Shown one piece after another: positions 404 through 39,962 of a stretch of DNA of 49,399 nt. The DNA comes from a virus. Location of the stretch: the IMG/VR virus record IMGVR_UViG_3300041402_000217, positions 1-49,399 of that record. The stretch is one strand, 5' to 3'. The position numbers were made by a program, and so were the translations under genes. Each line of letters opens with the position of its first letter. Position 1 is the first letter of the stretch. A model generated the notes under the pieces. It saw nothing but the letters and a program-made list of their open reading frames with translations, did not search any database and was not told where the DNA came from.

Positions 404-862
404 TTACTCCCTAATTATCGACATTAAAAAACAATCTACTAAACTACCATCAGGGTCCGGCATATACTTACGCCGTTTGCCCTCGACCTTAAACCCTAAA
501 AATCGGGCATAACTCAGTCCCGGCGCCCAGTCGCAGCGGGGCGAAATCTCAGTCCTCTTCAAATCGTTGCTCTCAATCATTTCATGTAACTTCGCTTTGG
601 CTAATTGCGGGTCTATATGCTTGGCGCCTATGCCCTCCGGCATAACTACCCACGCCTCGCCAAAACCTTTCCAGTGTATTACTATCCCACCGCAACCGAC
701 AATCACGCCGTTTAGTACCCCCGTCCACGATGGGCCGTTTTTCATGTTGTGTCGCAACCATTTTTCGTAGTCCTTATGACCTTTAAGTCCTTTCTGGTTG
801 GGCTTGTCTTTTAAGGAAAGGCCGTCTTCGAACTTGAATTGTCTAAATATCATTTCAGCCAT
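404..862 (-). CDS. GNAT-fold (acetyltransferase-like) protein at the T7 gp13 / internal virion protein A position
   Basis: 152 aa. GNAT-like C-terminal pattern (...SYARFLGFKVEGKRRKYMPDPDGSLVD...). Sits between the nozzle-like gene and the internal virion protein genes, and its ATG overlaps the upstream stop. Confidence 0.5.
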   Translation of the reverse strand: MAEMIFRQFKFEDGLSLKDKPNQKGLKGHKDYEKWLRHNMKNGPSWTGVLNGVIVGCGGIVIHWKGFGEAWVVMPEGIGAKHIDPQLAKAKLHEMIESNDLKRTEISPRCDWAPGLSYARFLGFKVEGKRRKYMPDPDGSLVDCFLMSIIRE

Positions 863-3800
863 AGACTTTCAACCTCGCTGTAATTGACCTGACCGTCATC
901 GGCAGGGGTTGGTCCTGCTCTACGTAAACATCACCTTGAGTTCGGTATCCACTTTCAATCTTCTTAGACTTCTCGCCTGTAAATAACGGCGGCGGCTCTC
1001 CGGTTATATCGCCTACCTTGCGGAACGGGACAGTCAGTAACGTATCGCCCTCACTTAGGCCAACCCGCGCCCCTAAAGTCTTATCGAAAGATACAATCAT
1101 TTCATGGACCCTTATGGCCTTGCCCCTTATGTTAGTGCCCGGCACCGTTAATTTCATGGGCTGTACCTTCGATTTATAGGGCAGACCTATATGAACTTTA
1201 TTATAATAATCGGTCAAGGTAACAGCGCCGCTGCTCACTATTACATTGTCGTGGACCGAACCGTCGCCTAAGACCGAAACAGTCTTTCCCTCAAGGTGGT
1301 CGAGGCCGAAAAAGGCGTTTTCGACCTGCATAATCCTGCCCCTGACCGTGATAGTTACGGCTGTAGTAGTCGCCGTACCCTTCTTGGACATTGTAAACGT
1401 ATCGTCACCGATGGCCGTAATAGTTGTATCGGACGGTATGCCCGTGCCTGTTACAGTGCCTCTTGTTGCTAACTTGGCTATATCGGCGGCGCTTACGTTG
1501 GTTACGGCATAACTATCCCATTCGACATCACCGGTAACAGAAGACTCGAAAGCGGTATAATCAGAACCCAATGTACTCCAGTCGATGGAATCGAGTTTGT
1601 CTTTTAAAGCTACCGTGTCAGTAGCGGCGCTGGCGACGGTAAATACTTTATTATTGATTTCAACCATGCCCGGAACGCCTATGATTTTGACCTGGTCGCC
1701 GTTGCTGTACCCGTTAGCGACCGCCGTTACCACAGCAGGGTCGGCCTTGGTAATGCCCGTAATGGTAATAGCGTCACCGCCGTCGAAAGTAAGACCGGAA
1801 TCTACAAAGAAACAATCGGCCTGATCGCTGCCCCAGTCGCGGGGCATGAAATATTCGACATATCTCTTGGTATCGCCGTCTATCGTACGATTGACAATTA
1901 TCCACACTTCGTCCTCACTGACGCCGGGAATGACAGCTACGTCCTCTACCAGGCCATCGGTTACTACATTGAACCACCCCCAAACCTTTTCGCCCGGCTC
2001 GAACGTCATGCCAATAAGATTGCCATTACCCAACACGCACCACAAAACCGGCTCAGGTTGTTGCTGGTAGGCCATACTGACTACCCCGCTCTTGGTGATA
2101 TGGTTGGCTAACGTAGTATAATCCGGCGCATCATAACCCCCGGACTCGCCCCGGTCGAAAATATATTGCGCGCCCCTGACGGACTTGCCCTCACTCTGGA
2201 CGAATAAAACTATGTTCGCTAACATTATCGCCTGAATATCTTTACTGCCGTAAGTGGTCTGTATTCGTGGCATTATGGGATTACCGGGAGTAAGCGGGCC
2301 GTCTGTATCGAATGATCCTAACTTCCATTCCGCGCCGGCAGTACCTAATAACAAGACCTCTTTCGATATTAACCACCTGACAGCATTCATTTCATTAGCA
2401 GCAAGTGAATACGAAATAGAGTCGTCATCGAGTATAGAATCGGTCCTGAAGTTCTCCCAATCATCGGTCCTGCTTCCCTTTATGCTGTGCGGCTCAAAGG
2501 TCGTACCGCCTGTCATCAACCGCTCTTCGTGGAACGTGGCACTTGAAGGATACCCTCTTTCGTCCGACCACGAACCTTCGGACCACAACTTCGTGGCGCT
2601 CGTAGAACCTATGGCCCTTATAGTCGTTCCGATGGCCGCTGTTGCGCTCGTGACACTCGTTATCCTGACAATGCCGTAATGATAGAAACGCTCACACGAT
2701 AAAGTAACTGTAGGGTCTTTACCGGCTGTATCAACAGTCCTGCGCATCCGAAGATAAGCGTCGCCTGATTCTTCTTCTCCTATAATAATAAAATCTTTAT
2801 TCCCTGCCGACTGGACAGTCTCTAATATGTGCCATCCCTCGTATCGAGGCCACGTCGCCGCGGTATCTCGGCTATTGGCATCTTGATTACTGAGCACTTC
2901 GCCGTCTGTGAAACTGCCGGACAACTGCTTGATGGTGTAATGTGTAGTATCTGTTGCCGAGACAATAACACAAGTTTCCTCGCTTGTTGCGCCGGTAATA
3001 ATATCGTCTTTCGCCCAAGCCCCACTTGCAGGCGCTGCATCGAGGACCAGTGTGAGCAACCCGTTGTAAGAGCGTTCGAGAACGAGCGTTCCTATCCATG
3101 CGTTGTTGGTCGTATAATCAGTTCTGGCTTTGTACGAACCCTTAACATCAACTAATATATCAGTTACCCCCTCTGCCGCGTAAGAATCGGCGGCATCACC
3201 CAAAACTATCAAGGTAGCGATGTCAGTTAATTTTTTTGTGATGTTATTATTCGTCCTGTTGTGTTTAATCAGCCAATATGAATCAACATGGCCAGGCGCA
3301 AATATCGCCGAAGTCGCTGTCAGTGTTACCGTTCCTGCTGTTGCAGACGGCGTTATAGTCGTAGGCGAACCGTTCTCGGTCATAAACGGCGGCCAGTCGA
3401 AATCGATACTATCCAGCTCCCATGCATTGTGAGCAAGCCTGGACAACTTTCGGGGATTATAACCGGAATGAAAACTGTACATCACGTCCGCCGACTGGAT
3501 ACGCTGGAGGCCGAATAAATCATCCTCTGAATAGGGGCTGGTTATCTCGTAAGCCGAAGTACTGTAAAGGCTTGCGATTTCAGAAGCACTCAGGACATCA
3601 CCGAATAAAGCGATATTGTCTAATTTGTCAGCCCATACTTTCTCTATCACTCCGCCCGCAGAAAATTGCGCGCCCATTCTCGGCGCTGCGCCTGTGTCCT
3701 CCATCGCGGAATAAGTCGCAAGATTAGTTGCCGTTACATCTACGGCGATTCCGTCAACATACATAATTATATCGTCCGCCGCTGCGTCACCACCGTCATT

Positions 3801-5288
3801 TTGGCCGTTATAAGTTACCGCCACAAACCGCCAGCCAACATCTAAAGCATTGTCAGATAATGCCGAAGGATAGACTGTATTTAATTCCTCAATTCCATCG
3901 CCATCATTGTACAAGGCAGTAACTTCGGGAGCGGTAAGCTCTCTACCAAAAACCATAACATTATCTATTTTGCCCTCAGCGTAATTTCCGCCATGTTCCA
4001 TAAGTCCGATATAAACATCGTGTGCGTTACCGTGCATAGCCGTATAACCACCAGCCTCTTCATCGGCATCATCTACGGCAGTGCCGTTCAAATACAACGT
4101 GATCCCCGCAGATACCTCGGTTGCATCATAAGTCGCTACAACGTGAATCCACGAACCCTGTTGCGCGGTCAAGGCCGCCGCATCGTATTTCCTGCCTATA
4201 CGATTACCTTCCGCATCGTCATGTAAATTGAGAACCAACTTATCATCAGCGCCAACACGGAATCGCCATTCTTCGCCACTATCGTTATATTTACATAATA
4301 TCGGAAAATCGGTGGCATCGGCCATATTTATCCATGCGCTTATCGAAAACGGACTGTCGTCGGCGCCATCACCGAACCTGAAATCAGCGTGGTCATCTAT
4401 TTTGACACTATCGTCTGACCCGTCAAGATCGAAAGCATTGTTTACTTTACCTGCAACGCTGTGGTCGGATGTATAGTTGTTGTCACCGTCAGCCAGTGTC
4501 CCGTCGTGACTTCCTGTCGCATCATCTACAACGGCATTAGCAGCGCTGTCGTTTAACTTCCAGTGAGCTATAAGAAGGTCTGAGTCCAACAAAAGACTCT
4601 CATCGGCAATACATAATTTGAGTTTACGAGATGAATCCAAAAGCAATTTCCACTCCCTCGCCTGTGAACCGATAGTCTCGTCCCATTTCGATAATATAAC
4701 CTGTTCTGCGCCCGTATTCTTGACATACGCCCAGCCCGCAATACTGAAATCTCCGTCAACCCCTTCAACGAAAGTAAAGTCGGCGTGGTCCGTCATAGTA
4801 ACGACATTAGTGCCGTCGAAATCAAAACTTCCCGTACCCACCTGGGCGTCAGCGTGTAGAACATCTGTATTGACGCTCGCTATCCCGTCGTGAGTATTAC
4901 CGTCGTCGTCTAAGACCGCTGTATTAGTTGTGTCATCGTTTAACAGCCAATGCGCTATGATATTATCAAGTGCGCCCAAGTCTTCCGTGCCGGCTCCGCC
5001 AAGTATCTGCCCCCTGTCCCTGTAGAATCTTAAATACTCATCCCCGGCCTCTAAGATATAAGACTGAACCGTAGAATATTTAAACGGCAGCAATCTTGTA
5101 GTCTTGGAGTTGTCTTTGACCTCGCCGACGTAATAAGTGCCCGGCCTGCGGTCAGCAGGGCCGTACCGGGTTGGAAACATATTATCTAAGACCCGGCAGG
5201 CGGAGTAGTACTTCTCAAGGTCAGACCGACCATCGAGGTTAGGTGCGAATACTCCCGCGTTAAAAGATTGTACAATTAAATCAGCCAT
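855..5288 (-). CDS. Large tail nozzle / tail tubular protein B-like protein carrying a nested pair of LamG (Laminin_G_3) domains
   Basis: 1477 aa. The N-terminus (F.AG..AP.L.GR.DL.KY......N..P...GP...RPG) resembles podovirus nozzle/gp12-type starts. LamG signatures HW.LND...D..G.HDG and ...LSASEIASLY occur at aa 105-576. Gene position matches T7 gp12. Confidence 0.55.
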   Translation of the reverse strand: MADLIVQSFNAGVFAPNLDGRSDLEKYYSACRVLDNMFPTRYGPADRRPGTYYVGEVKDNSKTTRLLPFKYSTVQSYILEAGDEYLRFYRDRGQILGGAGTEDLGALDNIIAHWLLNDDTTNTAVLDDDGNTHDGIASVNTDVLHADAQVGTGSFDFDGTNVVTMTDHADFTFVEGVDGDFSIAGWAYVKNTGAEQVILSKWDETIGSQAREWKLLLDSSRKLKLCIADESLLLDSDLLIAHWKLNDSAANAVVDDATGSHDGTLADGDNNYTSDHSVAGKVNNAFDLDGSDDSVKIDDHADFRFGDGADDSPFSISAWINMADATDFPILCKYNDSGEEWRFRVGADDKLVLNLHDDAEGNRIGRKYDAAALTAQQGSWIHVVATYDATEVSAGITLYLNGTAVDDADEEAGGYTAMHGNAHDVYIGLMEHGGNYAEGKIDNVMVFGRELTAPEVTALYNDGDGIEELNTVYPSALSDNALDVGWRFVAVTYNGQNDGGDAAADDIIMYVDGIAVDVTATNLATYSAMEDTGAAPRMGAQFSAGGVIEKVWADKLDNIALFGDVLSASEIASLYSTSAYEITSPYSEDDLFGLQRIQSADVMYSFHSGYNPRKLSRLAHNAWELDSIDFDWPPFMTENGSPTTITPSATAGTVTLTATSAIFAPGHVDSYWLIKHNRTNNNITKKLTDIATLIVLGDAADSYAAEGVTDILVDVKGSYKARTDYTTNNAWIGTLVLERSYNGLLTLVLDAAPASGAWAKDDIITGATSEETCVIVSATDTTHYTIKQLSGSFTDGEVLSNQDANSRDTAATWPRYEGWHILETVQSAGNKDFIIIGEEESGDAYLRMRRTVDTAGKDPTVTLSCERFYHYGIVRITSVTSATAAIGTTIRAIGSTSATKLWSEGSWSDERGYPSSATFHEERLMTGGTTFEPHSIKGSRTDDWENFRTDSILDDDSISYSLAANEMNAVRWLISKEVLLLGTAGAEWKLGSFDTDGPLTPGNPIMPRIQTTYGSKDIQAIMLANIVLFVQSEGKSVRGAQYIFDRGESGGYDAPDYTTLANHITKSGVVSMAYQQQPEPVLWCVLGNGNLIGMTFEPGEKVWGWFNVVTDGLVEDVAVIPGVSEDEVWIIVNRTIDGDTKRYVEYFMPRDWGSDQADCFFVDSGLTFDGGDAITITGITKADPAVVTAVANGYSNGDQVKIIGVPGMVEINNKVFTVASAATDTVALKDKLDSIDWSTLGSDYTAFESSVTGDVEWDSYAVTNVSAADIAKLATRGTVTGTGIPSDTTITAIGDDTFTMSKKGTATTTAVTITVRGRIMQVENAFFGLDHLEGKTVSVLGDGSVHDNVIVSSGAVTLTDYYNKVHIGLPYKSKVQPMKLTVPGTNIRGKAIRVHEMIVSFDKTLGARVGLSEGDTLLTVPFRKVGDITGEPPPLFTGEKSKKIESGYRTQGDVYVEQDQPLPMTVRSITARLKVYG

Positions 5289-9514: not shown

Positions 9515-10960
9515 TCAGTCCTTTCTGAACCAAAAACATCCGCACCCGTTGTTCTGCTCGGCTACCAGTTCTTTTGCATCTCTGATAAGATTGCCCGGCG
9601 TCACATCGGGTATTAACATAAACTCAACCAATTTGAGTTCTTCAAAATAACTCATAATCTGTTCATAGCTGTAAATTCGGTGGATATTGAATATAACTCT
9701 CGGCTTGCCAACCGGGACTACAAATAATAAATCGCCGGCAAGAACCCGTTTAAGTTCCGATATTGCTTTTAAGTCTCCGTCCGGGTCGAGAGGGTCGCCG
9801 TACCTGCCTAACCCTATATGCTCGACAACGTGCATACAGGAAAGAGAGGGAATCGAATTATCAGCAAACGGTAACTGTGCCAGGTCTGCAAAGTTCGTCC
9901 GCAGGCCCGACAGCGGAATATCAAGAGGGCGATAGTCATAAGAATCTATCGGGATAAACGCCGAGACTAACGTGTTGAAATAAAGCAATGAAGAGATGTC
10001 AACGTGCTTTTCGGGCGGACAGGCGGCCAGAATACGAGCGGCCCAGCCGGTGTGCATGATGTAAGGCTTGTCGCCTTTCTGTTCGGGTTCTTCCAGGCAA
10101 CGCGGGCTTCGCCTAATCTCAAACCTATTGTCTTCTTTAGACATTTGTACGAACGTCTGGTATTCCGCCACACATTTTCTTGTCCCAAATAAATAGTAAT
10201 GCTTGATTCCGTGCGGGAACTCATACGGCATTTCCAAACAGTCAAACTCGTAACTTGTGTTTTCGTGAACGAACTTTTCAAAATAATCATAGTTGTCAAA
10301 ATCATTGTGTGTTGCCTGGAATATTATGAGTACATACTTGGTGTTTATCCCGCCCAGTATCCTTTTCCGCATCTCATAAGAAACTTCCGAGATGGACCAT
10401 GTAGCGATAAAAAGGCTTTCGTCGCGTGTCATTTGTTTTTTGAAATCAACCTCATCCCGCAAATATGTAATCCGGCCATTGGTCATTTCGCCGAGATAAT
10501 ATTGCTGAAGTTGAAGTACCGCAGGCAGGTCCATAATCGTATACTCGCCGGTAAAGCCGAAATTGTGTATAAGTCTGCACATGCAGCCGTAACCGCCCCC
10601 GAACTCATAAATCTTGTTGAGATTTTCTATTTTACAGTCCGTATTTGAAAGAAAACGCGCCAGGAGTTCAGCCTGCATTATTAAATTACCACTGCTCTGC
10701 GGATACAATTCGTACGGCTCCGGATTCCCTACGGGGGATTCGACTATGGCTTTTTCCCATTTCTCCCAGTCCGGCAGGCTTTGGAGATACTCCAGGGGCG
10801 AGAGCGACCTCAACTTGGTAAACATTGTCTGTCTAATCACGTCCCATTCCGTAAAGTGGGAAATGTCGCCTGTGAGTATTTGGTCGGCTATGGCATTGTT
10901 GTAATGCCCCCAGTCCGACTCTACGCACGGCCCTGTTGCTATATCATCTATCGTCTGCAT
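9515..10960 (-). CDS. Fusion of a sugar O-methyltransferase-like domain and a DUF268-like class I SAM methyltransferase domain
   Basis: Start moved to ATG 10960 (MQTIDDIA..., parallel to the paralog start MQKIELD). The N-terminal half has YEFGGGYGCMCRL (motif I). The C-terminal half has CMHVVEHIGLGRYGDPLDPDGD...FNIHRIY. Confidence 0.65.
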   Translation of the reverse strand: MQTIDDIATGPCVESDWGHYNNAIADQILTGDISHFTEWDVIRQTMFTKLRSLSPLEYLQSLPDWEKWEKAIVESPVGNPEPYELYPQSSGNLIMQAELLARFLSNTDCKIENLNKIYEFGGGYGCMCRLIHNFGFTGEYTIMDLPAVLQLQQYYLGEMTNGRITYLRDEVDFKKQMTRDESLFIATWSISEVSYEMRKRILGGINTKYVLIIFQATHNDFDNYDYFEKFVHENTSYEFDCLEMPYEFPHGIKHYYLFGTRKCVAEYQTFVQMSKEDNRFEIRRSPRCLEEPEQKGDKPYIMHTGWAARILAACPPEKHVDISSLLYFNTLVSAFIPIDSYDYRPLDIPLSGLRTNFADLAQLPFADNSIPSLSCMHVVEHIGLGRYGDPLDPDGDLKAISELKRVLAGDLLFVVPVGKPRVIFNIHRIYSYEQIMSYFEELKLVEFMLIPDVTPGNLIRDAKELVAEQNNGCGCFWFRKD

Positions 10961-11769
10961 CTTAAGGCCTCTTCTGAAACTTCCCCGAACAAATAGAAAT
11001 GATCGGGACGATTCGTTATTTTGTTGGGAAGGGCGATAGCGGTCCATCTATAGTCAGGAATCTGCTGCGTCGTCTGACAAAAATAGGCCAGGTTGTCAAG
11101 CTCTTCGTGACTTCCCTGAAAAGCAATGAGGATGTAGTTCGCTTTATCGAGGACTGCCTGTAAAATCGCATCTCTCAACGCATAAGACACTTCTGATAAA
11201 GACCATGTTGCTATAAAAAGACTGCCGCCTTCTATTTGTTCCATAAATTCCTTACTATCCAATAAATACACAAGCTGTCCCTGTTTTACCGTTCTCCCAA
11301 GATACCACTTTTGAAGGACTTGTACGGCTGGTAAATCCATGATCGTGTACTTGCCTGAAAAACCGAGATTGTGTATAAGCCGGCACATACAACCATAGCC
11401 GCCACCGAACTCATAAATTGCTTTCAGGTCTGTCAACTTACAACTCGTTCTTGAAAGGAACTGGGAAATATGGTTCGCTTGATGTATCATGTGGTCGCTA
11501 CTCAAAGGATACCACTGGTTAGGTGTGGGATTCCCCTCCGGCACTTCCTTGATAGCTTCTTTCCATTTGTCCCAGTCGGGCAGGTTCCGGAGATATTCAA
11601 AAGCACCCTGACTGTCACCCCCCTGGCTATCGTTGTAGTGCATTGTATTACTTACTATCGGCCATTTTGTAAAGTTGTTAATGTCATCTTCTTCAATATG
11701 TTTCGCTATCTTGTTGTTGTACCCTATCCAATCGTACCGAACACAAGTGTCGAGTTCTATTTTCTGCAT
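10948..11769 (-). CDS. Sugar O-methyltransferase-like class I SAM methyltransferase (paralog of the N-terminal half of 9515-10960)
   Basis: 273 aa. Shares LPDWDKWKEAI...YEFGGGYGCMCRLIHNLGF.G.YTIMDLPAV with the adjacent gene. GGGAGG lies upstream of the ATG. Confidence 0.65.
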   Translation of the reverse strand: MQKIELDTCVRYDWIGYNNKIAKHIEEDDINNFTKWPIVSNTMHYNDSQGGDSQGAFEYLRNLPDWDKWKEAIKEVPEGNPTPNQWYPLSSDHMIHQANHISQFLSRTSCKLTDLKAIYEFGGGYGCMCRLIHNLGFSGKYTIMDLPAVQVLQKWYLGRTVKQGQLVYLLDSKEFMEQIEGGSLFIATWSLSEVSYALRDAILQAVLDKANYILIAFQGSHEELDNLAYFCQTTQQIPDYRWTAIALPNKITNRPDHFYLFGEVSEEALRCRR

Positions 11770-13043
11770 AGCAAAGCCTCCCTCTGTAATTCACCTATCC
11801 GCTCGGCGCTCAGCCCTGATGTCTCGATGACTATATCAGCTTCGCCGTTTTTCTTTTTGTACGCACCGTAACCGTTTGAATCAATTTGCTTCCATGTAAG
11901 ACCCTCTTTCGGTTTGATGTCGTATTCCCCGCCGTTGCGGGCAGCATCGCCTATCGCCGTACCCTTATAGGGGAAGAATACCGTACAGTCGAAGTCAAAC
12001 TTATCAGGATATTTCTCTCTGTATTTCCTGATGAAAATGTTTGTCTGACGTGCGGTTCTTTCCGTCTCGCCCGGTAGCCCGATTATGAAGAACGCTTTGA
12101 CTCTCATGCCAGCAGCGATAACTGTATCTATGAAATAGCCCATCTGAGGAACCGTTGTCTTTTTATTGACAGTATCGAGTATCTTCTGGCTGGCGCTCTC
12201 GGCGCCAAACCCTATCTCAACACAACCGGACTCCGCCAAAAGTTCTGCCATTTTTAATGTCATTGTCGCGGCGTGGCCGAAACACCGAAAGGCCATAGAG
12301 TGCCTTTTAAGCACTTCTAAGTAGGGTTTCGCGCGTTCGATATTTAGTGCAAAAAGGTCGTCAAAAATCATCACACCCTCATACCCCAACTCTTTGATGC
12401 TCTTAATCTCTGCCTCGAAGTGTGCTACAGAAAACCACTTGGGTTTAGTTCCCCCGCTTTCACAGAATCCGCACCGCATGGGACAACCACGCGAATTGAC
12501 CATAGTTGTAGTCTTTGCCCCGTTCAAAGTATAATTGTACCTGTCAGCATACCGATGAGGAATAGGATAGCTGTTCATCTCATCCTCGGATAGTGTGTCG
12601 CAGTACATCCTCTGTTCCGGTGTGGACTTCGGCGACAGGCGGGAACATCCACCTGTAAGTAGTTCCTCCCATATCCGCTCACCGTCACCGCAGACGATAA
12701 TATCAAAGGGGTGCTTCATGCACTCGTCGAGATAGTACGTTGCGTGTGGCCCGCCTATCATTACTGTTGTATGCGGATAATACTTTTTAATATCCTCGCA
12801 TAGCCGATAAGCCTGTGGGCCTTGCGGTGTCATGCAGGAAATAGCGACAACATCATATATCCCTACCGCGCAATGGACAAGGTTGTTGTCAGTATAATCA
12901 ACATCGGCGCCTACCCTCTCCGCTACCGCCTGTAGATACTTAACACCCAGGTACGGGAATACAAACTGGTCGTCCAGAAACGGACTATCCAGCGTGGCAA
13001 GCAATATCCGCTTGCCTGATAAATTGTCTGTATTTTTCTTCAT
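11757..13043 (-). CDS. B12-binding (class B-like) radical SAM enzyme
   Basis: 428 aa. N-terminal cobalamin-binding-like segment (VVAISCMTPQGPQ...VMIGGPHATYY), followed by RGCPMRCGFCESG, which is a CxxxCxxC radical SAM cluster motif. Confidence 0.75.
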   Translation of the reverse strand: MKKNTDNLSGKRILLATLDSPFLDDQFVFPYLGVKYLQAVAERVGADVDYTDNNLVHCAVGIYDVVAISCMTPQGPQAYRLCEDIKKYYPHTTVMIGGPHATYYLDECMKHPFDIIVCGDGERIWEELLTGGCSRLSPKSTPEQRMYCDTLSEDEMNSYPIPHRYADRYNYTLNGAKTTTMVNSRGCPMRCGFCESGGTKPKWFSVAHFEAEIKSIKELGYEGVMIFDDLFALNIERAKPYLEVLKRHSMAFRCFGHAATMTLKMAELLAESGCVEIGFGAESASQKILDTVNKKTTVPQMGYFIDTVIAAGMRVKAFFIIGLPGETERTARQTNIFIRKYREKYPDKFDFDCTVFFPYKGTAIGDAARNGGEYDIKPKEGLTWKQIDSNGYGAYKKKNGEADIVIETSGLSAERIGELQREALLCRK

Positions 13044-13758
13044 TTTCCATTACACATTTAGGAGCATCTAACGGTTCTGTCGTAAACGTCATTCCGCGCT
13101 CAAATATATCCTCTCCGGCTGCTACGCGCTCTTGCAGCCTGTTCACGTCCTTGAAGTAGTCCGTATCGTATTCGGCGTGGGCAAAAGCCTCTAACTTCTT
13201 TGGTATCTGGTCAGGCGGGACAAGGTAAGAAAAGTGCCAACCGGCGTCTGGTATATAGTCTTTATACTCGCCAAGCCGTAACTTGTCCGGCGTAACGAGA
13301 TCCTTGTACTGGCAAAAAGCGGGGTACATCCATTCCTCGTTCGCCCTGCAGTTAAAGGAATAATAAAACAGCTTCATTTGCAGCCTGGTGGGATGATGGA
13401 AATGTTTCATCAGCGGCACTACCCCACGTCTCGGTATCTCATCGAGGTCGGAAACTATGATAATGTCGTCCGCCATAGCCCCCCTCAGTCCGTACAGGAT
13501 AGCGTTTCGCTGGTTCCTGTCGTTCTCAAACCTGTCAGGTCCCATCGGAGCAGAGCAGGCAATGTGGGTTATCTTGTCCTTGAACGGACCGAATATCTCA
13601 TTGTCCTTGACCTCGTCATAGTAAAGCCGTTTTGGTTTGCCTGAGTGGGTATGAGTCGCCTCTACCAGTACAAACCTGTCAACTACCGGGGACAGTTCTT
13701 TCAGGCGAATCTCCAGTAGCATCAACTCATCGAAAAACGGGAAGCAGTCGAAAATCAT
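12985..13758 (-). CDS. Glycosyltransferase family 17-like (GnT-III-like)
   Basis: 257 aa. MIFDCFPFFDELMLLEIRLKEL..VDRFVLVEA..THSGKPK ... DDIIIVSDLDEIP ... GWHFSYL is the GT17 signature as I recall it. Confidence 0.75.
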   Translation of the reverse strand: MIFDCFPFFDELMLLEIRLKELSPVVDRFVLVEATHTHSGKPKRLYYDEVKDNEIFGPFKDKITHIACSAPMGPDRFENDRNQRNAILYGLRGAMADDIIIVSDLDEIPRRGVVPLMKHFHHPTRLQMKLFYYSFNCRANEEWMYPAFCQYKDLVTPDKLRLGEYKDYIPDAGWHFSYLVPPDQIPKKLEAFAHAEYDTDYFKDVNRLQERVAAGEDIFERGMTFTTEPLDAPKCVMENEEKYRQFIRQADIACHAG

Positions 13759-15166: not shown

Positions 15167-15616
15167 TTACGTACCTACTTTAGTCAAAGGTGTAGCACCA
15201 CTAACCCAGGCATTGAACTCTGTTGCCCATGCGGTTTCCGCATTATGCCGCCAGTACATCAGCCGCAGATAACGACTGTGAGAGTTGGGGATTGCAACTT
15301 GCAATATCACCCCATCACTGTCGCTTGCCGCTTGTATCTCCGGAATACGCATTCTTTTCTCTAACAAGAATGTGTCCGTAGCCGCAAAAGCTGCGCCTGT
15401 GCTGCCCTGCAACTTGAAGCTGCACCATTCCGTTGCACCAATAAAGGTGTAAGGAGTGGCGATTGTTATGTTCAGGTAAAGCGGAGTGCCGGAACCGATG
15501 TCTAAATTCTCGGCTCCGAGGTCGATGATATTGGTGGAAAACGTCTGAGTTGCCGCGGCCGTTGCTCCGACCGTCTGAGTAGAACTAAAGATAAGTTTTG
15601 CGTCTCTTATACTCAT
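15167..15616 (-). CDS. Capsid cement/decoration protein (Bordetella phage BPP-1 Bbp16-like)
   Basis: 149 aa. MSIRDAKLIFSSTQTVGATAAATQTFSTNIIDLG...GSGTPLYL pattern. ATGA overlap with the capsid gene immediately upstream. Confidence 0.6.
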   Translation of the reverse strand: MSIRDAKLIFSSTQTVGATAAATQTFSTNIIDLGAENLDIGSGTPLYLNITIATPYTFIGATEWCSFKLQGSTGAAFAATDTFLLEKRMRIPEIQAASDSDGVILQVAIPNSHSRYLRLMYWRHNAETAWATEFNAWVSGATPLTKVGT

Positions 15617-16647
15617 GTTAAGGGTACCTCCTTACTTCCAATAGCATCCACTCGCCTTACGGGAACACCCCTGAACAGGGTTGTCGGCCTACCGCTCCAG
15701 TCACCAATGGTGTAAAGCACGTTCGTCCTGTCGACAGCGTGAATATCCATCTGCGTCTTGGTGTTTTCGTTGCAATAGATTCTGGCACCTGCACCCTTAT
15801 AAGGCAGGGCGTTAAGCGCCTCAATCAACTTGTGATGGATAGTTGCCGTGCTGCTACCGAATGACATGGTTGCAGCTATCTCTGTACGGAGGTTGGCAAT
15901 TCGCCTGATACAACGGTCGTCTCGGACTACAAGACCCGGATGGACCTTGAAGTGACTTACCAACGCCTGCATTAAAGCAGGTGCAGCGTAAGTGCCGCTT
16001 GCCTCGATGGTCTGTTCGCCGAGATTCTCATGGACTATACCCATAGTGGGTGAACCTTTCGGGTAGACCATGTGAACCTTATCCGCACCCCACTGAACGA
16101 TATAGATACTCGTATCAGCAGTGGTAGACGCTGCGCCACCGTCATAGACGTTAAATAGATTTATATCGTCTAATCGAGCAGGAAAACCGTTGAACCTTGC
16201 GGGGTATGTCTCGGCGTCGCCGTAAATAGTCGTCACGTCGCCTGAATTGTCCGCAGTGAACATGACCTTCGACAGTTCCTTGGCAAGTCCTTGTACAAAG
16301 GCTTTGTCCTCACCAGAACGAAACTGGTTGGTATTGCCGGACAGTTCTGCCAGGAGTTTATCAACACGGCTGTACGCCTCAAGGATACCAATACCCTCGG
16401 TGATTTGATTGGTACTGGATGCTTCAGGAGCAACACCTTGATTGATTGCACGCCATGTTCCGGTCGGCTCACTGGTCCGCTGGGTCGTAATATGACTCAT
16501 CGGCTGGTTTGCCTGTATCCAGATGGCGTCTTCCATCCATTCTTCAGTTGTCAGAAGAACTTCAACAATCGCTTGGAGGGCACCGAAATTGGTCCGCTTG
16601 GCTAACTGTTCAAGAGTAAGCTGGTCTCTGGTATTAAATTCAGTCAT
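15613..16647 (-). CDS. Major capsid protein (HK97-fold family)
   Basis: 344 aa. Position after the scaffold gene. Pattern ...W.QAN.P..H.TTQRTS.PTGTWRAINQGV...S...Q.TE......AYS.VDK matches the podovirus capsid family by eye. GGAG precedes the ATG. Confidence 0.8.
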   Translation of the reverse strand: MTEFNTRDQLTLEQLAKRTNFGALQAIVEVLLTTEEWMEDAIWIQANQPMSHITTQRTSEPTGTWRAINQGVAPEASSTNQITEGIGILEAYSRVDKLLAELSGNTNQFRSGEDKAFVQGLAKELSKVMFTADNSGDVTTIYGDAETYPARFNGFPARLDDINLFNVYDGGAASTTADTSIYIVQWGADKVHMVYPKGSPTMGIVHENLGEQTIEASGTYAAPALMQALVSHFKVHPGLVVRDDRCIRRIANLRTEIAATMSFGSSTATIHHKLIEALNALPYKGAGARIYCNENTKTQMDIHAVDRTNVLYTIGDWSGRPTTLFRGVPVRRVDAIGSKEVPLT

Positions 16648-19569: not shown

Positions 19570-21306
19570 TCAATACCTGCCTCTTGTGCGGGCAAAACCG
19601 GTATCCTTTTTCGTACCATATCTATGACGAGCGGATTTTGTGCCTGCATAGTATTCTCTTTTTATTTCGCTTGCCGACAATACCCCTGAATATATCCTTA
19701 CGTCGCTTATACTGCCTGTAACAAGCTGGACCGGGCCACCATCACTGTCTGGTTTTCCCCCAATAGTTACGATGTCAACCGTGGTTGGAAAATCAGTAGC
19801 CGCCGTATCCGTTGTACTATTGGCCGAAAAAACACCATTTACATATATATCTCTATTTGCGTCCGAGTGCCAGATTCCTACTACGTGAACCCATTCGTTG
19901 TAAATCGCTGAAATCGCAGAAACAGTGTCAACGGGTACAGCTGCGCCGCCTTTCATTCTCATTATCGGGACACCGTTTTTAAGGTCTAATCCCATCCATC
20001 GGAGATTAATCCCCGTAACACCATCAAGGGCAATCATTAATAATGTGGAGGTTTGGGAAGAAGGTATTTTATACCACGCAGAAAAGGTGCACGGAAAACT
20101 CAACAACGGCACAGCGGCGTCATCTATATAATCGCCCGTTCCGTCTAATGTTAAGCCATGACCGACAGGTGCTAATACTGAAACTACATCCTCGCTGTTT
20201 GTTCCGTGATAAGCGTTGCCGCTGCTGTCAATAATGGCCCCCGCGCCAGCCGCCGTTCCATCCGCCTCGTCTAATTTCCAATGAGCGACAAGGGGTGTAG
20301 CCGTTTTGTAGCTTCTCTGGTGGCCGTAACCTGTTAAAGTTACCAACCCCTCCTGTCCGTTAATTGTTGTATGGGTCGGTGATGTTATCTCTAAGACCGC
20401 ATGAGAGAATCGGCCCGTATCAGTTTCGTCTTCACCCCACAAATCCCCTCGTAAGTTGATGTACACAATTCCATTTACGATTTCAGTTCTATCGTCAACG
20501 TGAATATGACCCTGAATGACTACGGGTTTTATCGTCTGGGCTTCCATTGCAATTACAGCAGCCGCGCCGCCGCCAGTTGCCCCTTCAGCGCGGGTTGTGT
20601 ATAATGGCTGATGGGTTACTACTATTACCGGCGTCCCAGCCCCCTCTGCGACAGCCAAGTGGCTTTCAAACCAAGCCTCTTGTGTCGATGCCCCGCCCGA
20701 ATCATCGCCGGTAGTCTCCATATCTATAACTGCACCCGGATTGCATAAAACAAGTATCATAAAGCCGCTATCGTCAAAACGATAAGCACAGTAAGTGTCG
20801 TTGGCGACATCAGGGTTAAGATTGTCCGGCCACCACATATCAGCGTCTCTGCCCGCTGGTATAATATCAGTAACCCCGCTCGAAAGACCCGTAAACGCAG
20901 CGGCAACATCCGTCCCAGTCATAGTAGCGCCGCCTATATCCCAATGGCCGAAACAATACAGCATATCCGCATTAAGACCGTTACTCGATGCGTGAGCGCC
21001 ATCTATCCAACTGACAAGTTCTGCGTAATTCTGGGCGACAGTGCCATCGGTAGCGTCGTTTATCATATCGCCACCGTGAATTACCAAATCGACTACGTCT
21101 GTGTTGAACTGGTCAATGGCCTTGCCCATTGAATTGTCTTGGAAACCAGGTAATCGTTTTCCGGGTTTGTCGCCATACGGGTCAGCCGCAGTACCCTCTG
21201 TAAGACGAATATGAGTATCATACCATAAGCCTACTTTAATAGTTGCCGAAGGCCAACAGACCGAACACGATAACAACAACAGAAATAAGATTATAAACTT
21301 TCGCAT
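19570..21306 (-). CDS. Exported (lipoprotein-type signal) calcineurin-like metallophosphoesterase fused to a C-terminal LamG domain
   Basis: 578 aa. MRKFIILFLLLLSCSV has a lipobox-like LLSC. Phosphoesterase motifs YDTHI, HGGDMIND, GHWD, VVTHQP and QGHIHVDD. The C-terminus has LVAHWKLDE...GVLSASEIKREY (LamG). Confidence 0.7.
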   Translation of the reverse strand: MRKFIILFLLLLSCSVCWPSATIKVGLWYDTHIRLTEGTAADPYGDKPGKRLPGFQDNSMGKAIDQFNTDVVDLVIHGGDMINDATDGTVAQNYAELVSWIDGAHASSNGLNADMLYCFGHWDIGGATMTGTDVAAAFTGLSSGVTDIIPAGRDADMWWPDNLNPDVANDTYCAYRFDDSGFMILVLCNPGAVIDMETTGDDSGGASTQEAWFESHLAVAEGAGTPVIVVTHQPLYTTRAEGATGGGAAAVIAMEAQTIKPVVIQGHIHVDDRTEIVNGIVYINLRGDLWGEDETDTGRFSHAVLEITSPTHTTINGQEGLVTLTGYGHQRSYKTATPLVAHWKLDEADGTAAGAGAIIDSSGNAYHGTNSEDVVSVLAPVGHGLTLDGTGDYIDDAAVPLLSFPCTFSAWYKIPSSQTSTLLMIALDGVTGINLRWMGLDLKNGVPIMRMKGGAAVPVDTVSAISAIYNEWVHVVGIWHSDANRDIYVNGVFSANSTTDTAATDFPTTVDIVTIGGKPDSDGGPVQLVTGSISDVRIYSGVLSASEIKREYYAGTKSARHRYGTKKDTGFARTRGRY

Positions 21307-27618: not shown

Positions 27619-28121
27619 ATATTCTCACCAATCTGGTGTATTATTGCAGGACAGGCCAGCCGACAATCCGGTCTGCCCAAAGTGCCTTTTTAGCACCCGA
27701 CTTAATGGGATAAACCCATTTAATCACTATTCGTATGTAACATAGCCCTGACGGGATGAGGCTTGTATATCATGTCCCGCGTCGATGTTTGAGCAGTGAT
27801 GTGCGAACGCCTTTGTTTATCCCATTTAGGTAGGCTTGTAACTGGGTATGACACTTTGTTACATTGTCGGTCTGCCCGCTTCGTTCCATCATATTACTCG
27901 GTCTCAATATTTCTAACTATTATTTGCTTACAATGCGGTCGGCAGGATTTTAACCCGCTTGCTACTCACACCTGTACATGCTTTCGCTATGTTACACCTG
28001 GTCCGTGGCCCCTGTACAGCAGGATGCGCGTTCGATGTTAGCGTTTCACACACGCCGCAACCGCATAACTGCGACCCCCGAAAGTGCCGCAGGCTCAGTG
28101 GTTAAACCGCCGAGGATGTAA

Positions 28122-28196
28122 TGGGGCAGACTGGAATCGAACCAGCGTAGCCTCCTGATTACAAAACAGGTGCTCTCCCTGCTGAGCTACCGCCCC
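28122..28196 (-). tRNA. tRNA-Thr (anticodon UGU), non-standard length
   Basis: Hand-folded reverse complement GGGGCGG TA GCTC AGCAGGGA GAGC A CCTGT TTTGTAA TCAGG AGGCTAC GCTGG TTCGATT CCAGT CTGCCCC A. T-loop TTCGATT. About 7 nt in the variable region. No encoded CCA. Confidence 0.7.
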
Positions 28197-28443
28197 ACTC
28201 TTAGCTTTTTTCTCAATATCTCATGCTTCTGCCCTTTCAATTAAACGCGCGTTCTTTTGATTAGAACAGTTTCGTAACGTCCAATTCTAACCTATTACGT
28301 TTCAAAGTCAAGATAAATCTGAGAATTATTTCAATTTTTTCCCGGCATTTGGGCTAAGTCCCTGAAAGAGCGGAAGTTAGCATACGAAAAAATATTTAAG
28401 TTTCCTGCGCGGATCGCCGATGTTTCAAGAGAAAGGAGCAACC

Positions 28444-39853: not shown

Positions 39854-39881
39854 TTACTCCCGTATTAAGTTAATAAAACAC

Positions 39882-39953
39882 TAACCCTGCCCGGAATCGA
39901 ACCGAGGCCAACGGACTGAAAATCCGTTATGCTAGCCGCTACACCACAGGGCC
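39882..39953 (-). tRNA. tRNA-Glu (anticodon UUC)
   Basis: Hand-folded reverse complement GGCCCTG TG GTGT AGCGGCTA GCAT A ACGGA TTTTCAG TCCGT TGGC CTCGG TTCGATT CCGGG CAGGGTT A. Two G-U pairs at the acceptor end. Confidence 0.65.
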
Positions 39954-39962
39954 AACCGTACC

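What the first reader, a model, noticed from the sequence alone, without database searches (positions are those of the whole stretch)
11757..13043. Cobalamin-type radical SAM enzyme inside a phage glycan cluster
The ORF combines an N-terminal B12-binding-like segment with a CPMRCGFC (CxxxCxxC) cluster motif. This architecture is that of class B radical SAM methylases, which methylate unactivated carbons (for example sugar C-methylation in aminoglycoside pathways). It sits between a GT17 gene and two O-methyltransferase paralogs and overlaps both neighbours. Such enzymes are unusual in a roughly 49 kb phage and need cobalamin and a reductant from the host. It suggests C-methylated or otherwise radical-modified sugars on the product.
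Basis: partly seen in the sequence, partly recalled or inferred. Interest (0 to 1): 0.7.

Follow-up and report, generated by a model that had tools for sequence, protein, structure and literature searches.

The report
Phage B12-type radical SAM glycan enzyme
A ~49 kb uncultured phage carries, inside a sugar-building gene cluster next to its capsid genes, a vitamin-B12-type radical enzyme from a large uncharacterised family that probably adds a methyl group (or another radical modification) to a sugar, suggesting some phages coat their particles with unusually modified glycans.

Summary
Window 11757-13043(-) encodes a 428-aa protein with a Pfam B12-binding domain and a Radical_SAM domain (both above gathering score) and a canonical CPMRCGFC cluster motif. 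It overlaps a GT17 gene upstream and the first of two paralogous sugar-O-methyltransferase-like genes downstream.

A confident AlphaFold model (pLDDT 91.9) matches B12-type radical SAM structures. The top hit is AprD4, a cobalamin-free diol dehydratase, but that similarity is confined to the radical SAM core. The N-terminal domain carries every published cobalamin-binding motif of class-1 Cbl radical SAM enzymes, all conserved in 55 homologues.

No characterised subfamily model comes near its cutoff, so methylation is the most likely chemistry but is not shown.

The family is large. It is always embedded in glycan genes, in bacteria (including a flagellin-glycosylation-like island) and in about 60 uncultured viral contigs. 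In several phage lineages it sits beside head genes. No close relative exists in 50,697 deposited phage genomes.

Best reading: a host-cobalamin-dependent sugar-tailoring enzyme of a late-expressed phage glycan pathway that probably decorates virion proteins. It is a new subfamily in a new setting, not a new enzyme class.

The parts
11757..13043 (-). B12-binding / radical SAM enzyme, 428 aa (the finding)
   Evidence: ORF; Pfam PF02310 + PF04055 above cutoffs; AF2 model pLDDT 91.9, pTM 0.89; fold matches to AprD4, MgmA/QCMT, TsrM, CysS, TokK, OxsB
12660..12959 (-). N-terminal Rossmann-type cobalamin-binding domain (aa 29-128) carrying the downstream motif A67-x-S69-x-M71-T72-P73-Q74, G97-G98 and G121-E122
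   Evidence: Pfam. Aligns to the Cbl domains of TokK, CysS, OxsB and TM0182/4Q37 but not to AprD4. Motif conservation in 55 homologues. Motif definitions from PMC9204698
12462..12485 (-). CX3CX2C [4Fe-4S]/SAM cluster motif C187-P-M-R-C191-G-F-C194, preceded by R185
   Evidence: Sequence. C187, C191 and C194 invariant in 55/55; R/K185 in 55/55 and aligned to TokK Arg204
12985..13758 (-). GT17-family glycosyltransferase; its last 59 nt overlap the rSAM start
   Evidence: PF04724 at 114.5 bits. A GT17-like gene co-occurs with the rSAM in other viral loci L011-L013, L015, L150
13755..15098 (-). GT11-like glycosyltransferase fused to a class-I methyltransferase domain
   Evidence: PF01531 at 28.7 bits and PF08241 at 31.5 bits, both above cutoff; conserved in relative L002/L010
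10948..11769 (-). NanM-like putative sugar O-methyltransferase, paralogue 1; start overlaps the rSAM stop by 13 nt
   Evidence: TIGR04371 at 29.8 bits, below its cutoff of 44; 47% identical to the N-terminal half of the next gene
9515..11047 (-). NanM-like methyltransferase (paralogue 2) fused to a DUF268 methyltransferase-fold domain
   Evidence: TIGR04371 at 31.1 bits; PF03269 at 50.3 bits; the DUF268 part is conserved in L002/L010
8141..9511 (-). GT2-like glycosyltransferase, 456 aa
   Evidence: PF00535 at 26.7 bits; 73% identical orthologue in L002/L010
16728..17756 (-). NDP-sugar 4,6-dehydratase / UXS-like SDR, between the scaffold-position gene and the capsid gene
   Evidence: PF01370 at 177.6 bits. 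Best NCBIfam hits dTDP-glucose 4,6-dehydratase 139.7, LegB 117.7, UXS 93.6 bits, all below cutoffs. Absent from relative L002
18504..19649 (-). DegT/LegC/PseC-family sugar aminotransferase
   Evidence: PF01041 at 303.5 bits; LegC family 238.9 and PseC 220.6 bits, below cutoffs
15613..16647 (-). Major capsid protein (gp7/epsilon15 type), a candidate glycan acceptor (inferred)
   Evidence: NF045672 at 217 bits against cutoff 75
15167..15616 (-). Bbp16-type capsid cement/decoration protein, a candidate glycan acceptor (inferred)
   Evidence: PF21190 at 41.5 bits

Best explanation
The gene encodes a genuine cobalamin-dependent (class-1 'B12-binding') radical SAM enzyme of a large, uncharacterised, glycan-associated subfamily. 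Proposed mechanism: the [4Fe-4S] cluster on C187/C191/C194, reduced by a host flavodoxin or ferredoxin, cleaves SAM to a 5'-deoxyadenosyl radical. That radical abstracts a hydrogen from an unactivated sugar carbon. Host-derived methylcobalamin, held base-off/His-off in the N-terminal Rossmann domain, then donates a methyl radical. This gives a C-methylated sugar, and a second SAM re-methylates cob(I)alamin. The enzyme works together with three to four glycosyltransferase domains and three to four class-I methyltransferase domains. These are transcribed with the late head genes, and the heavily methylated oligosaccharide they build is most likely attached to virion proteins (capsid or cement protein). 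Shown: the domains, the cofactor motifs, the fold, and the family-wide glycan context. Inferred: cobalamin actually bound, methyl transfer as the chemistry, the identity of the sugar, and the virion as target.
For: Architecture and fold: Pfam B12-binding plus Radical_SAM above cutoffs. AF2 model pLDDT 91.9. Foldseek matches true Cbl enzymes: MgmA/QCMT 9ccb, TsrM TMq 0.71, CysS 0.69, TokK 0.65, OxsB. QCMT is of similar small size, so 428 aa is enough for a Cbl methylase.

Cobalamin motifs defined in PMC9204698 are all present and conserved in 55 homologues sharing 39-75% identity:
- a 14-residue beta1-alpha1 'His loop' without His
- downstream motif [G/A/C]67-x-S69 (55/55)-x-M/L71, with T72 and Q74 in 55/55, aligned to TokK A70-x-S72-x-Y74-x-W76
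- G97-G98 in 55/55 at the end of beta4
- G121-E122 in 55/55 at the start of alpha5
- R/K185 in 55/55, aligned to TokK Arg204, which contacts the DMB tail

The N-terminal domain matches the Cbl domains of TokK, CysS, OxsB and TM0182 but not AprD4.

Glycan role: neighbours are GT17, GT11/MT, NanM-like MTs, DUF268 and GT2. Homologues lie in a flagellin/FlbT/FlaF plus TPR-GT41 island, in GHMP-kinase/NTP-transferase sugar-nucleotide clusters, and in a Lentisphaeria polysaccharide locus beside GT61. In 29 viral loci the 110 nearest neighbours are dominated by methyltransferases, GT2/GT1, NDP-sugar SDRs and carbamoyltransferases. Some homologues are fused to Methyltransf_24.

Virion target: the genes are interleaved with the scaffold-position gene, MCP and cement genes with overlapping stops and starts. 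There is no terminator-like site on the coding strand between 7532 and 22000. The same gene order is kept in a 70%-identical relative. In Gp23-type phages the gene abuts the prohead protease and MCP. Portal or capsid genes occur within 8 kb in further lineages. Virion glycosylation by phage GTs has a precedent in mycobacteriophages (Freeman 2023, as cited in PMC12619734).

Core-module argument against a dehydratase/reductase pair: relative L002 lacks the SDR but keeps the rSAM.
Against: No characterised methylase model is approached: PhpK family 103 against 600, QCMT TIGR04014 41.5 against 360, HpnR 27.2 against 650, KedN5 39.8 against 700. The radical SAM core is closest in sequence (profile 101 bits against TokK 52) and fold (TMq 0.74-0.75) to AprD4, a non-methylase that does not bind cobalamin. 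Two invariant cysteines, C254 and C274, are shared with AprD4 but not TokK in the alignments. Cbl-dependent radical SAM enzymes also catalyse ring contraction, cyclisation and thioether formation. Cobalamin binding, the substrate and the acceptor are all untested. The host is unknown, so cobalamin availability cannot be checked. Head-gene proximity is not universal among the viral loci.
Confidence: 0.5

Rival explanations
1. It binds cobalamin but is not a methylase. It would carry out another radical transformation of a sugar, such as ring contraction or carbon-skeleton rearrangement (HpnJ- or OxsB-like), cyclisation or C-C bond formation.
For: HpnJ acts on a hopanoid-linked amino sugar and is among the top NCBIfam hits (77.7 bits). 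OxsB is a structural match. Reviews stress non-methylase Cbl radical SAM chemistry. The residue expected under the cobalt (Met/Leu71, Pro73, invariant Gln74) differs from the Trp, Arg and Asn seen in TokK, TsrM and OxsB, so cofactor tuning is not that of any known enzyme.
Against: HpnJ scores 77.7 against a cutoff of 577.6. Methylation is by far the commonest activity of the class (abstract of PMC11659888). The cluster's other tailoring enzymes are all methyltransferases, and some homologues are fused to an O-methyltransferase domain, which fits a methylation-rich glycan, though only weakly.
Confidence: 0.2
2. It is an AprD4-like, cobalamin-independent radical SAM enzyme that dehydrates or deoxygenates a sugar diol, and its N-terminal domain is only structural.
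For: AprD4 is the best PDB match by sequence (E 2e-13 single sequence; 4e-28 and 101 bits with the profile) and by fold (TMq 0.74-0.75). AprD4 acts on an amino-sugar substrate. C254 and C274 align with cysteines of AprD4.
Against: The similarity covers only the radical SAM core (profile positions 154-366); AprD4's N-terminal domain gives no significant match. In that alignment AprD4 shows one extra residue before the last Cys (CX3CX3C), whereas this family has an invariant CX3CX2C. The NF033070 AprD4 model scores 58.8 against 500. All Cbl-contact motifs (S69, G97-G98, G121-E122, R/K185) are invariant across a family that diverges to 39% identity, which is hard to explain for a domain with no cofactor. 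No partner reductase is kept in the core module, since the SDR is absent from L002.
Confidence: 0.1
3. It methylates a protein side chain, for example on the capsid or cement protein, as QCMT and Mmp10 do on methyl-coenzyme M reductase, rather than a sugar.
For: MgmA/QCMT is the third-best structural match and of similar size. The gene lies two genes downstream of the cement protein gene and three downstream of the capsid gene.
Against: Bacterial homologues sit in polysaccharide and nucleotide-sugar clusters beside GT61, GHMP kinase and nucleotidyltransferase genes, with no obvious protein-substrate gene. TIGR04014 scores 41.5 against 360. Viral neighbours are overwhelmingly sugar enzymes.
Confidence: 0.05
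4. The enzyme is as proposed, but the glycan is not put on the virion. It would instead modify phage DNA (glycan hypermodification) or host surface polysaccharide or flagellin, for superinfection exclusion or adhesion.
For: Phage GTs are known to glycosylate DNA and to alter O-antigen. Bacterial homologues occur in flagellin and polysaccharide loci. Head-gene adjacency is not universal.
Against: No hydroxymethylase, TET-like or thymidylate-synthase-like gene was found in the window, nor any flippase or polymerase. This rests on Pfam, NCBIfam and PHROG scans; the PHROG table lists only the first 25 of 46 families. The genes are embedded between the portal, scaffold-position, MCP, cement and tail genes with overlapping reading frames and no internal terminator-like sites. 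This layout is conserved in relatives and mirrored in unrelated phage lineages.
Confidence: 0.2
5. It is a viral copy of BchE (anaerobic Mg-protoporphyrin cyclase) or a similar tetrapyrrole or redox auxiliary metabolic gene, as some homologues are labelled.
For: JGI names several homologues 'anaerobic magnesium-protoporphyrin IX monomethyl ester cyclase'. Viromics papers discuss viral bchE as an AMG.
Against: The TIGR02026 BchE model scores 59.9 against a cutoff of 481. No tetrapyrrole genes appear among the most frequent families in 216 neighbouring ORFs of viral loci; the neighbours are sugar enzymes.
Confidence: 0.01

Closest known systems
Class-1 cobalamin-dependent radical SAM methylases with solved structures (TokK, CysS, TsrM; QCMT/MgmA)
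   Same: N-terminal Rossmann Cbl domain followed by a partial TIM-barrel radical SAM domain. Shared features: long His loop, A/G-x-S-x-X downstream motif, GG, GE, a basic residue before the first Cys, and CX3CX2C. Fold match TMq 0.65-0.71. QCMT is equally compact, about 420-450 aa.
   Different: Only 14-18% identity in the structural alignments. The lower-face residues are Met/Leu71-Thr72-Pro73-Gln74 instead of Trp (TokK, CysS), Arg (TsrM) or Asn (OxsB). The C-terminal cap is short (about 60 aa). The known substrates are carbapenams, peptides or Trp, not glycans. No family model cutoff is met.
Sugar-acting B12 radical SAM C-methyltransferases of antibiotic pathways (GenK, GenD1/GntE, Fms7, MoeK5, Fom3)
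   Same: They are listed as Csp3-methyltransferases of the same enzyme class (PMC12931638). They are the functional precedent for radical C-methylation of an unactivated sugar or sugar-like carbon (own knowledge for the individual reactions).
   Different: No sequences or models of these were available here, so relatedness could not be tested. They belong to actinobacterial secondary-metabolite clusters, not to protein, flagellin or virion glycan clusters or to phages.
AprD4 (radical SAM 1,2-diol dehydratase of apramycin biosynthesis, PDB 6FD2)
   Same: Best PDB match by sequence and fold. It has a similar length (457 aa) and two-domain layout and acts on an amino sugar. It shares the core motifs, including cysteines aligned with C254 and C274.
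   Different: AprD4 does not bind cobalamin (PMC12931638). Its N-terminal domain does not match this family's profile. In the alignment its cluster motif has one extra residue (CX3CX3C). NF033070 scores 58.8 against 500.
Mycobacteriophage virion glycosylation (Che8, Corndog and others; Freeman et al. 2023)
   Same: Phage-encoded glycosyltransferases associated with structural genes decorate capsid and tail-tube subunits (as summarised in PMC12619734). It is the nearest precedent for the proposed role of the cluster.
   Different: Those are actinobacteriophages. To my knowledge (the paper is not held) no radical SAM or cobalamin enzyme is involved. Here the host is unknown, the phage is an epsilon15/BPP-1-like podovirus, and glycosylation of the virion is inferred, not shown.
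Bacterial flagellin O-glycosylation islands with TPR-glycosyltransferases (FlmG-type)
   Same: A 48%-identical homologue directly follows, and overlaps, a TPR+GT41 gene beside flagellin, FlbT and FlaF genes. TPR-GT genes also flank homologues in L003, L005 and L150.
   Different: No B12 radical SAM enzyme turned up in a full-text search pairing flagellin glycosylation with these enzymes. The phage cluster has no TPR protein.

Membership tests
Radical SAM superfamily | CX3CX2C motif for the [4Fe-4S] cluster, in a partial TIM barrel with SAM-binding motifs | tested here: met
   C187/C191/C194 invariant; PF04055 at 63.8 bits against 29.5. Barrel strands in the model carry D228-D229 (GGE position), E282 (ribose motif position) and the K316...G322-L-P-G-E326 stretch (GXIXGXXE position).
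[quoted passage not shown] | N-terminal five-stranded Rossmann Cbl-binding domain preceding the radical SAM domain | tested here: met
   PF02310 at 58.6 bits against 32.1. The model shows alternating beta/alpha elements over aa 13-130. Sequence matches to the Cbl domains of TokK, CysS, OxsB and TM0182.
[quoted passage not shown] | Cbl-contact motifs: long His loop, downstream G/A-x-S/T-x-X motif, GG on beta4, GE at the start of alpha5, basic Cys-loop residue (PMC9204698) | tested here: met
   14-residue loop between beta1 (13-17) and alpha1 (32-43). [G/A/C]67-x-S69 in 55/55. G97-G98 in 55/55. G121-E122 in 55/55 at the start of helix 122-130. R/K185 in 55/55, aligned to TokK R204.
[quoted passage not shown] | Cobalamin actually bound and required for activity | not testable with these tools
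   Needs purified protein (UV-vis, cobalt analysis, activity with and without Cbl), or at least cofactor-aware co-folding or docking.
Class B radical SAM methyltransferases | Methyl transfer from methylcobalamin to a substrate radical, using two SAM per turnover (SAH plus 5'-deoxyadenosine) | not testable with these tools
   This is a biochemical property. I found no sequence motif in the reviews read that separates methylases from other Cbl radical SAM enzymes.
Class B radical SAM methyltransferases | Membership of a characterised methylase subfamily model (PhpK, Sden_1168, QCMT, KedN5, RiPP C-MT, TsrM-type, HpnR) | tested here: not met
   Scores against cutoffs: 103/600, 42.6/575, 41.5/360, 39.8/700, 37.3/281.85, 28.2/500, 27.2/650.
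AprD4 family radical SAM diol dehydratases | NF033070 equivalog score; the cluster-motif spacing seen in AprD4; Cbl-free degenerate N-terminal domain | tested here: not met
   58.8 bits against a cutoff of 500. This family has CX3CX2C, whereas AprD4 shows one extra residue before the last Cys in the alignment. Cbl motifs are conserved here, and AprD4's N-terminal domain does not match the profile.
BchE (anaerobic Mg-protoporphyrin IX monomethyl ester cyclase) | TIGR02026 equivalog score and a tetrapyrrole-pathway context | tested here: not met
   59.9 bits against a cutoff of 481.35. No tetrapyrrole genes in the window or among the most frequent neighbour families of viral loci.
HpnJ (hopanoid-associated radical SAM, sugar ring contraction) | TIGR03471 equivalog score and a hopanoid gene context | tested here: not met
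   77.7 bits against a cutoff of 577.6. No hopanoid genes in any context examined.
Phage virion (capsid) glycosylation systems | Phage-encoded GTs co-located and co-expressed with structural genes | tested here: met
   GT and sugar genes are interleaved with portal, scaffold-position, MCP, cement and tail genes on one strand, with overlapping ORFs and no terminator-like site on that strand. Conserved in L002/L010.
Phage virion (capsid) glycosylation systems | Glycan demonstrably attached to virion proteins | not testable with these tools
   Requires glycoproteomics on virions or on co-expressed proteins.

The most novel reading that the evidence does not exclude
Many uncultured phages of several unrelated lineages carry a conserved virion-glycosylation module in which a host-cobalamin-dependent radical SAM enzyme installs a C-methyl (or other radical) modification on capsid-linked sugars. 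The enzyme family is shared with bacterial flagellin and surface-glycan islands, so it would be a previously unrecognised general tailoring step of prokaryotic protein glycans. The 'viral bchE / B12 radical SAM AMGs' reported from anoxic viromes would then be members of this glycan family.
Probability: 0.3. Interest if true: 0.8.

Novelty: new variant of a known kind. Interest (0 to 1): 0.62.

Why it matters
If the reading is right, it matters in four ways.

- It extends radical, cobalamin-dependent sugar C-methylation from actinobacterial antibiotic pathways to protein and virion glycans.
- It gives a function to a family with hundreds of 50%-identity clusters that carries no specific annotation.
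- It widens phage virion glycosylation well beyond mycobacteriophages. It would also make phage particle chemistry depend on host vitamin B12 supply.
- It corrects a recurrent misannotation. Homologues are labelled BchE or YgiQ, and viral 'bchE' genes are read as heme, chlorophyll or redox auxiliary metabolic genes.

It also gives enzymologists a compact (428 aa) and well-predicted class-1 Cbl radical SAM scaffold with a new lower-face motif (Met/Leu-Thr-Pro-Gln).

Tried and rejected
- Nucleotide search of 7-20 kb against deposited phages: no match.
- Protein search against deposited phages: only Streptomyces phage SF3 (23%) and one fecal contig (22%). SF3's gene sits with thymidylate kinase and NUDIX genes, so it is a different context and not informative.
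- Cluster-member look-up of ten NCBI-sourced homologues: no names or accessions.
- Species-representative genome scan: only 40% identity or less, so no host clue.
- tblastn with Gp23, S77, gp7 MCP and portal probes against 63 viral loci found only the lineages they came from. The bundled Pfam scan was more useful.
- PADLOC: only a weak generic hit, PDC-M51A at 36 bits, so no defence-system link.
- BFVD fold search: only distant (14-16% identity) uncharacterised B12-like radical SAM proteins of uncultured phages.
- Literature: nothing links B12 radical SAM enzymes to flagellin or virion glycans. The Freeman 2023 paper is not held, and the search for AprD4 returned no structure paper. The CysS structure paper gave no motif that discriminates methylases.
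- BchE and tetrapyrrole AMG reading: rejected on model score and context.
- DNA-hypermodification reading: considered, but no supporting genes were found.


Full report
**1. Observation**

Pfam finds a B12-binding domain (PF02310, 58.6 bits, gathering score 32.1, aa 29-128) and a Radical_SAM domain (PF04055, 63.8 bits, gathering score 29.5, aa 184-332).

The upstream gene, 12985-13758, is a GT17 glycosyltransferase (114.5 bits), and its last 59 nt overlap the rSAM start. Homologues conserve the N-terminal K/R11-12 stretch, which supports the upstream ATG rather than the shorter 415-aa call of a public annotation.

The downstream gene, 10948-11769, overlaps the rSAM stop by 13 nt. It is 47% identical (E 2e-81) to the N-terminal half of the next gene, 9515-11047. 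Both resemble NanM-type sugar O-methyltransferases, below that model's cutoff, and the second carries an extra DUF268 methyltransferase-fold domain.

**2. The window**

All genes lie on the minus strand and about 90% of it is coding. The window encodes a gp7/epsilon15-type major capsid protein (NF045672, 217 bits), a Bbp16 cement protein, a PF12236 portal, a large terminase, tail proteins and two tRNAs. It is an epsilon15/BPP-1-like podophage with no close cultured relative; the best capsid match is 40%.

The sugar genes are interleaved with the head genes in this order:
- portal
- a Metallophos/lectin-domain protein
- DegT/LegC-like aminotransferase
- a 252-aa protein in the scaffold position
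- NDP-sugar 4,6-dehydratase/UXS-like SDR
- MCP
- Bbp16
- GT11/methyltransferase fusion
- GT17
- the rSAM
- methyltransferase
- methyltransferase-DUF268
- GT2-like
- tail genes

Several of these have overlapping stops and starts. There is no terminator-like site on the coding strand between 7532 and 22000. The rest of the genome shows no cobalamin, ferredoxin or flavodoxin gene, and no hydroxymethylase or TET-type DNA-modification gene (the PHROG table lists only the first 25 of 46 families).

**3. Is it a real cobalamin enzyme?**

A 55-sequence alignment (39-75% identity to the query) gave an AlphaFold model with mean pLDDT 91.9 and pTM 0.89. Foldseek against the PDB returns only B12-type radical SAM and MiaB-type architectures at the top. 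These are AprD4 (TMq 0.74-0.75), MgmA/QCMT, TsrM (0.71), CysS (0.69), MiaB, TokK (0.65) and OxsB.

The top hit needs care, because AprD4 is a diol dehydratase that does not bind cobalamin (PMC12931638). However, the similarity to AprD4 is confined to the radical SAM core (profile positions 154-366, 101 bits). The N-terminal domain gives no significant match to AprD4. It does match the cobalamin domains of TokK, CysS, OxsB and the isolated TM0182 domain.

The review PMC9204698 defines the Cbl-contact features of the structurally known enzymes. All are present and essentially invariant across the family:
- a long beta1-alpha1 loop (14 residues, no His)
- [G/A/C]67-x-S69-x-M/L71 on the beta3-alpha3 loop, aligned residue by residue with TokK A70-x-S72-x-Y74-x-W76
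- G97-G98 at the end of beta4
- G121-E122 at the start of alpha5
- R/K185 before the first Cys, aligned with TokK Arg204, which touches the dimethylbenzimidazole tail

The cluster motif is the canonical CX3CX2C, whereas the AprD4 alignment shows an extra residue. I therefore judge cobalamin binding likely (about 0.8). The lower-face sequence, Met/Leu71-Thr72-Pro73-Gln74, has not been seen in the solved enzymes (Trp in TokK, Arg in TsrM, Asn in OxsB).

**4. Which chemistry?**

No NCBIfam model of a characterised subfamily is approached. The scores against cutoffs are PhpK 103/600, TIGR04013 80.8/251, HpnJ 77.7/577.6, ApyD 70.5/750, BchE 59.9/481, AprD4 58.8/500 and QCMT 41.5/360. I found no sequence motif in the literature read that separates methylases from other Cbl radical SAM enzymes.

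Methylation is the commonest activity of the class (abstract of PMC11659888). It is also the one with sugar precedents, GenK, GenD1, Fms7 and MoeK5, listed as Csp3 methyltransferases. It needs no partner enzyme. That fits the fact that the 70%-identical relative keeps the rSAM while lacking the SDR.

Invariant R253, H257, K316, Y395 and K396, on or near barrel strands and the C-terminal cap, hint at an anionic substrate such as a nucleotide sugar. This is inference only. I put methylation at roughly 0.55-0.6 given cobalamin binding. Other Cbl-dependent radical chemistry is the main rival, and an AprD4-like Cbl-free reaction is a lesser one.

**5. Family and context**

The word-indexed search gave 482 relatives. 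The exhaustive profile search gave more than 150 clusters at 50% identity with near full-length matches of at least 243 bits.

Every context examined is a glycan locus:
- A 5.7-Mb bacterial contig has the gene overlapping the stop of a TPR+GT41 protein beside flagellin, FlbT and FlaF.
- Two metagenomic loci have it next to GHMP kinase, nucleotidyltransferase, split transketolase-like, DegT, GT61 and TPR-GT genes.
- A Lentisphaeria MAG has it beside GT61 and three flippase-family genes.
- Some homologues are fused to a Methyltransf_24 domain.

In viruses, IMG/VR holds 59 loci with relatives, of which about 35 are full length at 27-38% identity and one is at 70%. Pfam censuses were run on two ORF sets around the rSAM. 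The 110 nearest neighbouring ORFs in 29 viral loci are dominated by class-I methyltransferases (13), GT2 (10), NDP-sugar SDRs (7), GT1 (7) and carbamoyltransferases (4). A further 106 larger ORFs within 8 kb, in 25 of those loci, are dominated by GT1 (16), NDP-sugar SDRs (11), GT2 (6) and additional radical SAM genes (5). No tetrapyrrole family appears among the most frequent families of either set.

Head genes lie alongside in several lineages:
- the window and L002/L010 (MCP-Bbp16 directly upstream)
- two Gp23-type phages, where the gene abuts the prohead protease and MCP
- further loci with SU10-type portals, gpT-like capsids or HK97-type capsids within 8 kb

This proximity is not universal. 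Deposited phage genomes contain no close relative, and BFVD has only distant ones.

**6. Most likely function**

The protein is a host-cobalamin- and host-reductant-dependent radical SAM enzyme. It tailors a sugar, most likely by C-methylation, within a late-expressed pathway of three to four GT domains and three to four SAM methyltransferase domains. That pathway's product probably decorates virion proteins, as phage GTs do in mycobacteriophages.

Shown: domains, motifs, fold, and the conserved glycan context. Inferred: cofactor occupancy, reaction type, substrate and acceptor. Alternative targets (DNA or host surface) are not excluded, but no gene in the window supports them.

**7. Comparison and novelty**

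The protein works like, and passes the sequence and structure tests for, a class-1 Cbl-dependent radical SAM enzyme. It fails membership of every characterised subfamily tested, including AprD4, BchE and HpnJ. It is therefore a new subfamily of a known enzyme kind in a new biological setting: phage and flagellin-type glycan clusters.

Labels such as 'BchE' or 'YgiQ' on its homologues are probably misannotations. The same may apply to the viromics reading of viral bchE-like genes as heme, chlorophyll or redox AMGs.

**8. Verdict**

Interest is 0.62. The most novel reading not excluded is a widespread cobalamin-dependent virion-glycan modification system shared with bacterial protein-glycosylation islands, at probability about 0.3.

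Noticed in passing
window 42937-47439 (-) and 47439-48956 (-): Adjacent 1500-aa and 505-aa ORFs have no Pfam match, and no recognisable DNA polymerase was found anywhere in the window.
   Followed up: partly
window 19570-21306 (-) and 855-5288 (-): Two proteins carry ConA-like lectin (Laminin_G_3) domains. One is fused to a calcineurin-like phosphoesterase domain and lies between the portal-proximal genes and DegT. The other is a 1477-aa tail-region protein. They may be glycan-binding virion proteins.
   Followed up: no
window 28121-28197 (-) and 39881-39954 (-): tRNA-Thr(TGT) and tRNA-Glu(TTC) genes lie in the early region.
   Followed up: no
window 21000-49399, early/middle genes: One protein each matches cREC_REC, RyR and YopX domains. 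There are also several HNH endonuclease PHROG hits and a DNA methyltransferase (phrog_11619). The bundled scans do not say which ORF gave which hit.
   Followed up: no
L001 3130-11560 (5.66-Mb bacterial contig): A 48%-identical homologue overlaps the stop of a 1221-aa TPR+GT41 protein just downstream of flagellin, FlbT and FlaF genes, which suggests a flagellin-glycan tailoring role for the bacterial branch of the family.
   Followed up: partly
L002 / L010 (70%-identical phage relatives): The relative keeps GT11/MT-GT17-rSAM-DUF268-GT2. It lacks the SDR and the free NanM-like methyltransferase, and has only a 239-aa DegT-family ORF. This defines a core module and an accessory amino-sugar branch.
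   Followed up: partly
L150 4983-7013: In a 62-kb phage-like contig the NDP-sugar epimerase/dehydratase gene is split by a LAGLIDADG (intein or homing-endonuclease-like) insert. The same locus has a second, non-B12 radical SAM gene and a GT2-TPR fusion.
   Followed up: no
L005 7135-8643 and 14067-17750: This bacterial glycan locus has a second B12 radical SAM gene and a 1227-aa radical SAM-SPASM + GT + methyltransferase fusion protein.
   Followed up: no
P0128 (2096 aa), P0140 (2331 aa), P0145 (2279 aa): These giant proteins contain three to four matched stretches of this rSAM profile, so they are probably multi-module enzymes.
   Followed up: no
one search hit table; PMC13452462, PMC9723712: JGI labels homologues 'anaerobic Mg-protoporphyrin IX monomethyl ester cyclase' or 'YgiQ', and viromics papers discuss viral bchE or B12 radical SAM genes as metabolic AMGs. 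Context analysis here points to glycan tailoring instead.
   Followed up: partly
H4, BK063671.1 23395-24354: The closest capsid protein in the deposited phage collection (40% identity) belongs to a virus whose record names Methanomicrobiales as host. All other hits are phages of Proteobacteria.
   Followed up: no
L151 (Streptomyces phage SF3) 6872-8371: The only annotated cultured-phage B12-binding radical SAM protein (23% identical) sits next to thymidylate kinase and NUDIX hydrolase genes. It is a different, nucleotide-related context.
   Followed up: partly
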